A DNA stretch of 64,000 bases from a virus. The stretch covers positions 1-64,000 of the IMG/VR virus record IMGVR_UViG_3300027839_000007; one strand, written 5' to 3'. Every line of letters starts with the position of its first letter. Position 1 is the stretch's first letter. The position numbers and the translations under genes were made by a program. Under the pieces are notes generated by a model, which saw nothing but the letters and a program-made list of their open reading frames with translations, was not told the origin of the DNA and searched no databases. Shown here in pieces: positions 21,368 to 21,706 of the stretch.

Positions 21368-21706
21368 ATCAATAACCACGGGTCGCGAGCGTACCAAAAG
21401 CGGAGCGTGCAACCATCATGACTGCGAGTACCAAGAGGTAAGCGTGTAACCAGGGCAGCGGAGAGTACCAACACAGGAGCGTGCAACCTGCGTCGTTGCG
21501 AGTACCAGGATCATTGCGTGCAACCATCATTCGCGATAGTAACAAGCCGATGGCGTGCAACCATCCAACGCGCGAGTACCACGAGTATCGTGTGTAACCA
21601 GAGTCACGGAGAGTATCATGTCATTGGCGTGCAACCAGCGTCTGAGCGAGTTCCACTTGTTGAGCGTGCAACCATATTAATCGCTAGTAACAAACCTACG
21701 GCGTGC
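21368..21706 (+). repeat. TIGR-like dual-repeat array 2 (9 units, 37-bp period, 18 unique 8-nt spacers)
   Basis: GCGTGCAACCA-type repeats every 37 bp from 21368 to 21701 alternating with GCGAGTACCA-type repeats from 21387 to 21683; followed by T-run. Confidence 0.9.

What the first reader, a model, noticed from the sequence alone, without database searches (positions are those of the whole stretch)
21368..21706. TIGR-like dual-repeat array with unusual 37-nt period and 8-nt spacers
Seen: repeat A (consensus GCGTGCAACCA, 11 nt) starts at 21368, 21405, 21442, 21479, 21516, 21553, 21590, 21627, 21664 and 21701 (partial). It alternates with repeat B (consensus GCGAGTACCA, 10 nt). Every gap is exactly 8 nt and all 18 differ: CGGGTCGC/AAAGCGGA, TCATGACT/AGAGGTAA, GGGCAGCG/ACACAGGA, GCGTCGTT/GGATCATT, TCATTCGC/AGCCGATG, TCCAACGC/CGAGTATC, GAGTCACG/TGTCATTG, GCGTCTGA/CTTGTTGA, TATTAATC/AACCTACG. 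Most repeats end in CCA and each spacer is followed by G. The array is intergenic, its period is not a multiple of 3, and it ends in a T-run. Known: TIGR arrays of TIGR-Tas systems have two alternating repeats, about 36-nt units and two about 9-nt spacers next to CCA motifs, and guide Nop-domain Tas proteins. Inference: a phage-encoded guide-RNA array of a variant geometry (8+8), possibly used against competing elements or the host.
Basis: partly seen in the sequence, partly recalled or inferred. Interest (0 to 1): 0.95.

Follow-up and report, generated by a model that had tools for sequence, protein, structure and literature searches.

The report
Phage TIGR guide array, partner missing
This is a real repeat array built like the TIGR guide-RNA arrays described in 2025, one of several tucked behind unrelated genes of a marine jumbo phage, but the protein that should use its guides is not on this genome fragment.

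Summary
Window 21368-21719 holds nine 37-nt units: an 11-nt edge repeat, an 8-nt spacer, a 10-nt loop repeat and an 8-nt spacer. A 3'-truncated tenth edge and a T7 run follow. Self-identity at period 37 is 0.571, against at most 0.363 in 2000 shuffles.

The anatomy matches dual-repeat TIGR arrays (Faure et al. 2025). The 8+8 spacer geometry is that of the published Salicola phage SpTIGR, so it is not new. Only the 11-nt edge (37 nt, not 36) is a small variant.

A 3-unit array of the same family lies at 14146-14260. Five metagenome contigs carry the same repeats with mostly different spacers, including the orthologous locus. These contigs belong to the same jumbo-phage lineage, which has at least five array-bearing gene ends.

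No Tas/Nop gene was found in the 85.5-kb record, which CheckV rates 42% complete. A collinear relative has a weakly Tas-like gene just beyond our contig's left end, but it has no arrays.

Transcription, processing and targets are untested. This scan has noted TIGR arrays in many other phage genomes, and this genome's second array, before.

Verdict: a TIGR-type array with an unusual dispersed, tas-distal layout. Interest is moderate.

The parts
21368..21700 (+). Main array: nine 37-nt units (11-nt edge repeat, 8-nt spacer A, 10-nt loop repeat, 8-nt spacer B). The first edge is 5'-degenerate.
21701..21719 (+). 3'-truncated tenth edge repeat (GCGTGC), then GGTA, a T7 run and GG. Probable end of the transcript. 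No hairpin was detected.
   Evidence: The terminator scan found no + strand site here. The fold is no better than shuffles (z +1.36).
14146..14260 (+). Second, 3-unit array of the same repeat family with the same 11+8+10+8 geometry. It ends in a truncated edge (GTGTT) and T-rich sequence. Its repeats are more degenerate.
20688..21365 (+). Upstream gene (225 aa, P0001) whose stop codon lies 2 nt before the array. It is the likely carrier transcript. It has no family assignment and is not Tas-like.
   Evidence: In relative G001 it directly abuts the next gene with no array between them.
21727..22410 (+). Downstream gene (227 aa, P0002). It has no family assignment. It is syntenic with the gene that follows the P0001 homologue in G001.
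13230..14153 (+). Gene (307 aa, P0142) whose TAA stop codon lies inside the first edge repeat of the second array. It has weak, sub-threshold ParB-HTH and DUF1016_N matches.
1..1107 (+). Contig-end ORF, cut at its 5' end. In the collinear relative G001 its homologue is preceded first by a 178-aa gene and then by a weakly Tas-like 354-aa gene. The syntenic position of that gene therefore lies just beyond this contig's left end.

Best explanation
The stretch is a dual-repeat TIGR-type array.

Shown: its anatomy, its kinship with other arrays of the same repeats, and spacer turnover between relatives.

Inferred:
- It is transcribed on the + strand as the 3' tail of the upstream gene's mRNA and ends at the T run.
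- The precursor is cut inside the 11-nt edge repeats into nine 37-nt RNAs. Each carries two 8-nt guide segments on either side of the 10-nt loop repeat.
- Each RNA is held by a dimer of a Tas (Nop-fold) protein that reads the CCA and G motifs of the repeats.
[quoted passage not shown] 2025.

The Tas gene is not next to the array. It must lie in the unsampled ~58% of this ~200-kb phage genome or be supplied in trans. The best positional candidate is an orthologue of the weakly Tas-like gene that sits just left of where this contig begins in the collinear relative. Whether the outcome is cleavage or repression, and what is targeted, is unknown.
For: (1) The geometry matches the published definition. 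Faure et al. describe two alternating 8-12-nt repeats, fixed short spacers, 5-15 units, a 5'-truncated first edge and a 3'-truncated last edge before a terminator, with box C = CCA (passages seen). Searches show these features here.

(2) A direct comparison with a validated system is possible. The SpTIGR array of Salicola phage CGphi29 reads 10+8+10+8 with CCA-ended repeats directly after tasH. The NCBIfam model NF052498 recognises that TasH at 118.9 bits.

(3) Information content over 54 units from 6 contigs is 0.8-2.0 bits in repeat columns and 0.01-0.27 bits in spacer columns. Eleven repeat columns (8-11, 20, 24, 27-29 and the first and third letters of the next edge) were constrained by my selection pattern.

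(4) Spacers turn over between relatives. At the orthologous locus (L071, flank 78% identical in DNA) the first edge is identical, but the four spacers share only 5 of 32 letters with ours. I compared them by eye.

(5) Three of our 12 units have whole-unit homologues in other arrays, with at least 6 of 8 letters shared in both spacers. The shuffled control gave 0.024.

(6) The feature is strand-asymmetric. All 12 units are on the + strand, co-directional with the flanking genes, and are followed by T-rich sequence.

(7) My detection method has a positive control: 41 of 41 TasH loci showed a 36-nt array.

(8) No Rfam family covers the region.
Against: - No Tas, Nop or IS110-type domain was found in the 85.5-kb record. 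I tried Pfam PF01798 and PF02371 and NCBIfam NF052498 in six frames at E up to 10, SpTasH by phmmer, a 121-sequence TasH HMM, an HMM of the Tas-like family, and hhalign of 110 ORFs. None was found in the 14-kb sister contig either.
- The candidate Tas-like family (P0146) is only weakly Tas-like. Its NF052498 match is 28 bits against a cut-off of 100, hhalign probability is 2-4%, and it has no PDB hit.
- That family is not associated with arrays: 0 of 59 loci within +-10 kb, 0 of 3 complete genomes, and none in G001.
- No hairpin terminator was found.
- Three of 9 loop repeats lack the CCA.
- The loop repeat has AG where TasR arrays have the UG box D.
- RNA-library contigs cover the neighbouring genes but not the array, which is no evidence either way.
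- No spacer-pair target stands out above the mispaired control in 1.27 Mb of related phage DNA.
Confidence: 0.65

Rival explanations
1. Orphan or decaying arrays. These would be true TIGR-derived arrays that have lost their Tas partner. They would persist only as transcribed or untranscribed 3' tails of genes, with no guide function.
For: No tas was found in 85.5 kb plus 14 kb. The second array has only 3 units with degenerate repeats. Loop repeats in 3 of 9 main-array units have lost the CCA. The sister phage G001 lacks arrays altogether.
Against: Repeat columns stay highly conserved over 54 units on 6 contigs while spacers are near-random and keep exactly 8 nt. Neutral decay would blur both the lengths and the repeats. 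More than half of the genome is unsampled.
Confidence: 0.15
2. Double-stranded DNA protein-binding sites, such as iterons or a centromere. The repeats would be bound by a phage DNA-binding protein, for example the ParB-HTH-like product of 13230-14153 or an adaptor of the phage tubulin. The 8-nt gaps would be mere spacing.
For: A weakly ParB-HTH-like gene ends inside the second array (PF17762 E 5.8e-4, below the cut-off). A ParB-like DUF6551 gene is on the sister contig.
Against: All copies are in one orientation with an asymmetric motif. The last repeat is truncated and followed by a T run. Two different repeats alternate strictly. Arrays sit at five different gene ends rather than at one locus. 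Spacers turn over completely at the orthologous locus while the repeats stay identical. The layout is the same as that of the validated SpTIGR RNA array. No inverted repeats were found.
Confidence: 0.07
3. The guides are supplied in trans to a Tas protein of the host or of a co-infecting element. The phage would carry arrays only, in the way some phages carry CRISPR mini-arrays.
For: No tas is on either fragment (see above). Arrays are small, multiple and scattered, as expected for guide-only cargo.
Against: An exact-pattern scan of one genome for each of 185,579 prokaryote species found no array with these repeats, so no host system with matching repeats is known. The genome is incomplete.
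Confidence: 0.08

Closest known systems
SpTIGR-TasH of Salicola phage CGphi29 (NC_020844; Faure et al. 2025, PMC12045711; eight PDB entries hold this protein, among them 9W03)
   Same: Both have two alternating short repeats ending in CCA and two 8-nt spacers per unit. Both arrays start directly after a gene's stop codon, lie on the same strand as that gene, and end in a truncated repeat and a T run. Both are phage-borne.
   Different: The unit is 36 nt (10+8+10+8) there and 37 nt (11+8+10+8) here. The repeats begin AAG there and GCG here. By eye, the Sp array ends in a G+C hairpin before the T run, whereas ours has none. tasH is adjacent there, while nothing TasH-like is in our 85.5 kb. All 41 TasH loci examined had 36-nt arrays.
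Nuclease-free TIGR-TasA and dead-TasR systems acting as RNA-guided repressors (Xu et al. 2026 preprint, 10.64898/2026.09.09.750476; abstract, sections 5 and 6 and passages read)
   Same: They use dual-spacer guide arrays in viral genomes. Array position relative to tas is flexible.
   Different: In that survey arrays were sought around tas loci. Here no tas is within reach and the arrays are split over several gene ends. Function was not tested here.
'Arrayless' branch of compact viral TasR proteins (Xu et al. 2026 preprint, sections 6 and 13)
   Same: The P0146 family consists of 300-370-aa proteins in densely packed jumbo-phage genomes with no array nearby. It has a weak match to the Tas Nop model.
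   Different: Identity with that branch is my inference. The branch's contig list is in supplementary material that I could not open.
CRISPR arrays and phage-borne CRISPR mini-arrays
   Same: They are repeat-spacer arrays that encode guide RNAs. Spacers vary between relatives.
   Different: CRISPR has one repeat of about 24-36 nt and one spacer of similar size, as Faure et al. describe it (passage seen). Here there are two alternating 10-11-nt repeats and two 8-nt spacers per unit.
Plasmid and phage iterons or parS-type centromeres
   Same: They are tandem short repeats in an intergenic gap. ParB-like genes are in the neighbourhood.
   Different: This array is strictly one-stranded in design, with two alternating repeat types, a truncated last copy with a T run, and hypervariable fixed-length gaps.

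Membership tests
Dual-repeat TIGR array (Faure et al. 2025) | Two distinct alternating repeats of 8-12 nt | tested here: met
   An 11-nt edge and a 10-nt loop alternate strictly in 9 units. The definition is quoted from the passage seen.
Dual-repeat TIGR array (Faure et al. 2025) | Two spacers per unit of fixed length (about 9 nt, 8-12 overall) and variable sequence | tested here: met
   18 of 18 gaps are 8 nt and all differ. Spacer columns carry 0.01-0.27 bits over 54 units. SpTIGR also has 8+8.
Dual-repeat TIGR array (Faure et al. 2025) | Units of about 36 nt, usually 5-15 per array | tested here: met
   37 nt and 9 units. The second array has only 3 units.
Dual-repeat TIGR array (Faure et al. 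2025) | [quoted passage not shown] | tested here: inconclusive
   Both truncated edges are present and a T7 run follows. No hairpin was found by the scan or by folding (z +1.36).
Dual-repeat TIGR array (Faure et al. 2025) | Box C (CCA at the 3' end) and box D (UG near the 5' end) in both repeats | tested here: inconclusive
   CCA ends 8 of 9 edges and 6 of 9 loops. The edge has UG (GCG-UG-CAA-CCA) and the loop has AG (GCG-AG-UA-CCA). Both SpTIGR repeats begin AAG. The box definitions come from TasR arrays.
TIGR-Tas system | A Tas protein with a Nop domain encoded beside the array | tested here: not met
   None is beside the array or anywhere in the 85.5-kb record. The record is 42% complete. 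A weakly Tas-like gene lies at the syntenic position just off the contig in relative G001.
TIGR-Tas system | The array is transcribed and processed into unit-length tigRNAs bound by Tas | not testable with these tools
   Contigs from the three metatranscriptome runs laid out cover the neighbouring genes but not the array. Contigs cannot show RNA ends, and DNA carry-over cannot be excluded.
TIGR-Tas system | Spacers differ between related loci while repeats are kept | tested here: met
   The orthologous locus L071 has the same first edge but shares only 5 of 32 spacer letters. Over 54 units on 6 contigs, only 3 of our 12 units have whole-unit homologues.
TasH-type TIGR (SpTIGR clade) | 36-nt units with AAG-initial repeats next to an HNH-Nop protein | tested here: not met
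   All 41 TasH loci show period 36; ours is 37 with GCG-initial repeats. No TasH homologue was found.
Iterons / centromere repeats | Repeats bound as double-stranded DNA by a cognate protein | not testable with these tools
   Only circumstantial: a weak ParB-HTH match in the gene before the second array.

The most novel reading that the evidence does not exclude
The large family of compact, weakly Tas-like proteins of jumbo phages is the P0146 family. It has 1042 cluster representatives and no array within 10 kb at any of 59 loci. It may be the 'arrayless' viral TasR branch that Xu et al. 2026 leave as an open question.

In this marine lineage the family would draw its guides from small dual-repeat arrays scattered through the genome, each fused to the stop codon of an unrelated gene and expressed as that gene's 3' tail. 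That would make this the first case showing where an 'arrayless' Tas gets its guides. It would also describe a new, dispersed way of storing guide RNAs.
Probability: 0.12. Interest if true: 0.75.

Novelty: new variant of a known kind. Interest (0 to 1): 0.45.

Why it matters
TIGR-Tas systems were described only in 2025, and their natural targets, their spacer acquisition and their biology in phages are still open. The published surveys that I could read looked for arrays around tas genes. This locus shows the opposite arrangement. Several small arrays of one repeat family sit at the 3' ends of unrelated genes of a jumbo phage, with no tas within 85 kb, and their units are shared and reshuffled between arrays.

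If the guides are functional, array-first searches would be needed to find such systems. Gene-tail expression would be a new way of coupling guide supply to the phage transcription programme. If the partner proves to be the weakly Tas-like jumbo-phage family, it would answer an explicitly open question about 'arrayless' Tas proteins. If no partner exists, the arrays are a rare look at how TIGR arrays decay.

Tried and rejected
1. Flanking genes as the partner. P0001 and P0002 have no Pfam, PHROG, NCBIfam or PDB match. The P0001 family profile does not resemble TasH (hhalign probability 0.2%). In relative G001 the two genes abut with no array between them. Rejected.

2. The gene pair before the second array as tasA-tasParB. 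P0141 looks like DUF932 (language-model score 0.97, 27 of 30 hits), not Tas. P0142 has only sub-threshold ParB-HTH and DUF1016_N matches. P0141 and P0142 do not match the sister contig's coiled-coil and ParB-like pair. P0143 against TasH gives probability 0.2%. Rejected.

3. 'Two unrelated phages share the arrays.' I first read L069 that way because blastp found no shared proteins. Its terminase and three other genes then proved collinear with G001. L069 therefore covers a different part of the same kind of genome. Corrected.

4. Self-targeting. One spacer pair (unit 8) matches the phage's own DNA at 38789-38804 on the - strand with 1 mismatch. In the wider search, true pairs gave 2, 1, 0 and 4 hits in the four arrangements, against 2.1-2.6 for mispaired controls. 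This is chance level.

5. Other searches of public collections.
- Megablast of 20000-24000 against cultured phages found nothing.
- blastn of the array and tblastn of P0146 against cultured phages found nothing.
- A first pattern scan of IMG/VR gave one chance match with no array. The longer pattern gave 0 in IMG/VR and 0 in the species genomes.
- A polymerase-based search for relatives found none.

6. RNA evidence. Three metatranscriptome runs held contigs over 20300-21279 and 22517-22687 but none over the array. A part without cover proves nothing.

7. Periodic signals in other phage records turned out to be collagen-like or low-complexity coding repeats.

They hold the repeat catalogues and the contig list of the arrayless branch. 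They could show whether 37-nt arrays of this repeat family or the P0146 family are already catalogued.

9. Literature. Full-text searches for 'tigRNA' with 'jumbo phage' gave 0 papers. 'TIGR array' with 'orphan' gave 1 unrelated paper.

Full report
**The observation**

Window 21368-21719 is a regular array.
- It has nine 37-nt units. Each is an 11-nt repeat (consensus GCGTGCAACCA), an 8-nt gap, a 10-nt repeat (consensus GCGAGTACCA) and a second 8-nt gap.
- The first 11-mer is degenerate in its 5' half.
- A tenth 11-mer is cut after six letters and runs into GGTA and seven T.
- All 18 gaps are exactly 8 nt and all differ.
- Self-identity at period 37 is 0.571. The highest value in 2000 shuffles was 0.363, and this is the strongest such signal in the whole 85.5-kb record.
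- The repeat finder sees the 37-nt spacing. Tandem Repeats Finder does not, because the units are only about 60% alike.
- The array fills the gap between the stop codon of ORF 20688-21365 and the start codon at 21727, on the coding strand of both genes.
- No Rfam family matches.

**Context**

The window is the first 64 kb of an 85,545-nt IMG/VR virus record that CheckV rates 42% complete, which implies a genome of about 200 kb. It carries a family-A DNA polymerase. Its relatives are 195-226-kb jumbo phages. The runs that hold the stretch are marine or seawater metagenomes.

**Comparison with the published definition**

Faure et al. 2025 (PMC12045711; passages, section 6) define dual-repeat TIGR arrays by these features:
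- two alternating 8-12-nt repeats, named edge and loop;
- short fixed spacers, usually 9 nt, with 16 nt in total for SpTIGR;
- 5-15 units;
- a 5'-truncated first edge and a 3'-truncated last edge before a terminator;
- CCA (box C) at the repeat ends.

I fetched the Salicola phage CGphi29 record and read its array directly. It has 10+8+10+8 units with CCA-ended repeats immediately after the tasH gene.

Our array has the same plan with an 11-nt edge. By the truncation rule the 11-mer is the edge and the 10-mer is the loop. Only the 37-nt unit and the GCG-initial repeats set this array apart from the TasH clade, in which all 41 IMG/VR loci that I examined had 36-nt arrays. That result also serves as a positive control for my periodicity scan.

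Two features do not fit cleanly. No hairpin precedes the T run. The loop repeat has AG where TasR arrays have the UG of box D, and 3 of 9 loops lack the CCA.

**More arrays of the same family**

An exact-pattern scan found five metagenome contigs with the same two repeats. It found none in IMG/VR or in the 185,579 species genomes.

L071 is the orthologous locus. It holds a 77%-identical homologue of the upstream gene, the same degenerate first edge, and then two units whose spacers share 5 of 32 letters with ours.

L069 (14 kb) carries four arrays. I first took it for an unrelated phage. Its terminase, an RNase H-like gene, a ParB-like gene and a 744-aa gene are in fact collinear with kb 2.9-13.9 of the relative G001, at 36-64% identity. 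That is the same range as our contig against G001. L068, L070 and L072 are variants of the same loci. L069 therefore represents a part of this kind of genome that our contig does not cover. The lineage has at least five array-bearing gene ends. One seawater DNA run holds both our array and an L069-type array.

Over 54 units, repeat columns carry 0.8-2.0 bits and spacer columns 0.01-0.27 bits (eleven repeat columns were fixed or restricted by my selection pattern). Three of our 12 units have whole-unit homologues elsewhere, against 0.024 in the control. Several others share only one of the two spacers. This suggests that units and half-units are exchanged between arrays.

**A shared junction**

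At 4 of 5 independent loci, the TAA stop codon of the upstream ORF (143-749 aa, stop to stop) occupies positions 6-8 of the first, degenerate edge repeat. At the main array the TAG stop lies 5 nt before the first edge. The arrays are thus welded to the 3' ends of unrelated genes. This fits expression as mRNA tails. With a one-in-three frame expectation, the chance of at least 4 of 5 is about 0.05 by my own arithmetic.

**The partner**

Nothing Tas-like is on the 85.5-kb record.
- Pfam Nop (PF01798), Pfam Transposase_20 (PF02371) and NCBIfam NF052498 gave no six-frame match at E up to 10.
- SpTasH by phmmer, a 121-sequence TasH HMM, an HMM of the Tas-like family and hhalign of 110 ORFs gave nothing. 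The best E-values were above 0.2 and the best probability was 5%.
- The ORFs of the sister contig L069 also gave nothing.

NF052498 does recognise SpTasH (118.9 bits), so the model works.

The relative G001 (73.8 kb, 35% complete) is collinear with our contig: G001 35957-73305 corresponds to our 1-33867. It has one NF052498 match, a 354-aa gene (P0146). About 540 nt, filled by a 178-aa gene, separate P0146 from the gene in which our contig begins. By synteny, the position of P0146 falls just beyond our contig's left end.

The Tas-likeness of P0146 is weak but specific.
- Its NF052498 match is 28.4 bits (cut-off 100) over profile positions 45-113.
- NF052498 is the only NCBIfam family hit, in 22 of 38 family members.
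- Language-model neighbours are clusters with Transposase_20 in viruses and CPR bacteria (score 0.91).
- hhalign against TasH aligns the same helix-hairpin-helix-like segment, but at only 2-4% probability.
- Profiles of the family do not hit the Tas structures in the PDB, although the PDB holds them.

The family is large: 1042 cluster representatives. It is not array-associated.
- 0 of 59 IMG/VR loci have a dual-repeat array within 10 kb. Three weak periodic signals proved to be low-complexity coding repeats.
- None was found in three complete 195-205-kb genomes or in 160 kb of a fourth.
- None was found in G001 itself.

Xu et al. 2026 (preprint, sections 6 and 13) describe an 'arrayless' branch of compact TasR proteins in dense viral genomes, and they leave its guide source open. 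P0146 may belong to that branch, but this is my inference.

The fold of P0146 and the contigs of its closest homologues could therefore not be examined.

**Function**

I looked for spacer-pair targets in all four arrangements in 1.27 Mb: this record, G001, the sister contigs and 58 jumbo-phage loci. I found no excess over mispaired controls. A one-mismatch match of unit 8 to the phage's own DNA is at chance level. Metatranscriptome contigs cover the neighbouring genes but not the array, which says nothing about the array itself.

**Verdict**

The array is real, and by anatomy, family conservation and spacer turnover it is a dual-repeat TIGR-type array. I put 0.65 on the reading that it supplies guide RNAs to a Tas protein encoded elsewhere. 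The rivals are:
- orphan or decaying arrays (0.15);
- guides used in trans by a host or co-infecting Tas (0.08);
- double-stranded DNA binding sites (0.07).

It cannot be filed as a complete TIGR-Tas system, because the defining adjacent Tas gene was tested for and not found on an incomplete genome. What is new relative to the papers I could read is the layout: several small arrays of one repeat family, each fused to the end of an unrelated gene, far from any tas.

This scan has already noted many phage TIGR arrays, some with a distant TasA (unchecked notes), and the second array of this genome.

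Noticed in passing
window 14146-14260: A second, 3-unit array of the same repeat family (11+8+10+8) with more degenerate repeats. One of its units has a near-identical homologue on metagenome contig L070 (15 of 16 spacer letters).
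   Followed up: yes
window 14151-14153; L069 (reverse strand) 2249, 3128, 13703; L068 601; L072 (reverse strand) 430: The TAA stop codon of the upstream ORF lies at positions 6-8 of the first, 5'-degenerate edge repeat at 4 of 5 independent array loci. The arrays are fused to the ends of unrelated genes.
   Followed up: partly
G001 (IMG/VR relative) 34353-35417 = L073 1099-2163: A 354-aa gene with a weak, partial match to the TIGR-Tas Nop model lies directly after a Rad50/SbcC-like ATPase gene. It belongs to a family of 1042 cluster representatives, common in jumbo phages, with no dual-repeat array nearby.
   Followed up: partly
window 12064-14153: A gene pair: a DUF932-like 388-aa protein (language-model score 0.97), then a 307-aa protein with sub-threshold ParB-HTH and DUF1016_N matches. 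Both are conserved in G001.
   Followed up: partly
window 38789-38804 (- strand): The spacer pair of unit 8 (spacer A plus the reverse complement of spacer B) matches the phage's own DNA with one mismatch. The mispaired-control search shows this is chance level.
   Followed up: yes
window about 30400-30600: A strong periodic signal with periods 24, 36 and 48, presumably a coding repeat of a 12-nt base unit. I did not look at it.
   Followed up: no
window 14293-14499: By eye, a small gene that looks like a cold-shock protein. Its 55%-identical homologue in G001 sits at a different place (6533-6781), so the gene has moved relative to the conserved gene order. The family was not tested.
   Followed up: no
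L069 4921-7348 (- strand): The sister contig carries an RNase H-like gene, a 252-aa coiled-coil gene and a ParB-like DUF6551 gene in a row, between its arrays. None resembles TasH.
   Followed up: partly
G002, G003, G006 (complete jumbo-phage records): Kilobase-long collagen-like (9-nt periodic) coding repeats give 36- and 45-nt periodic signals that mimic arrays in a simple periodicity scan.
   Followed up: yes
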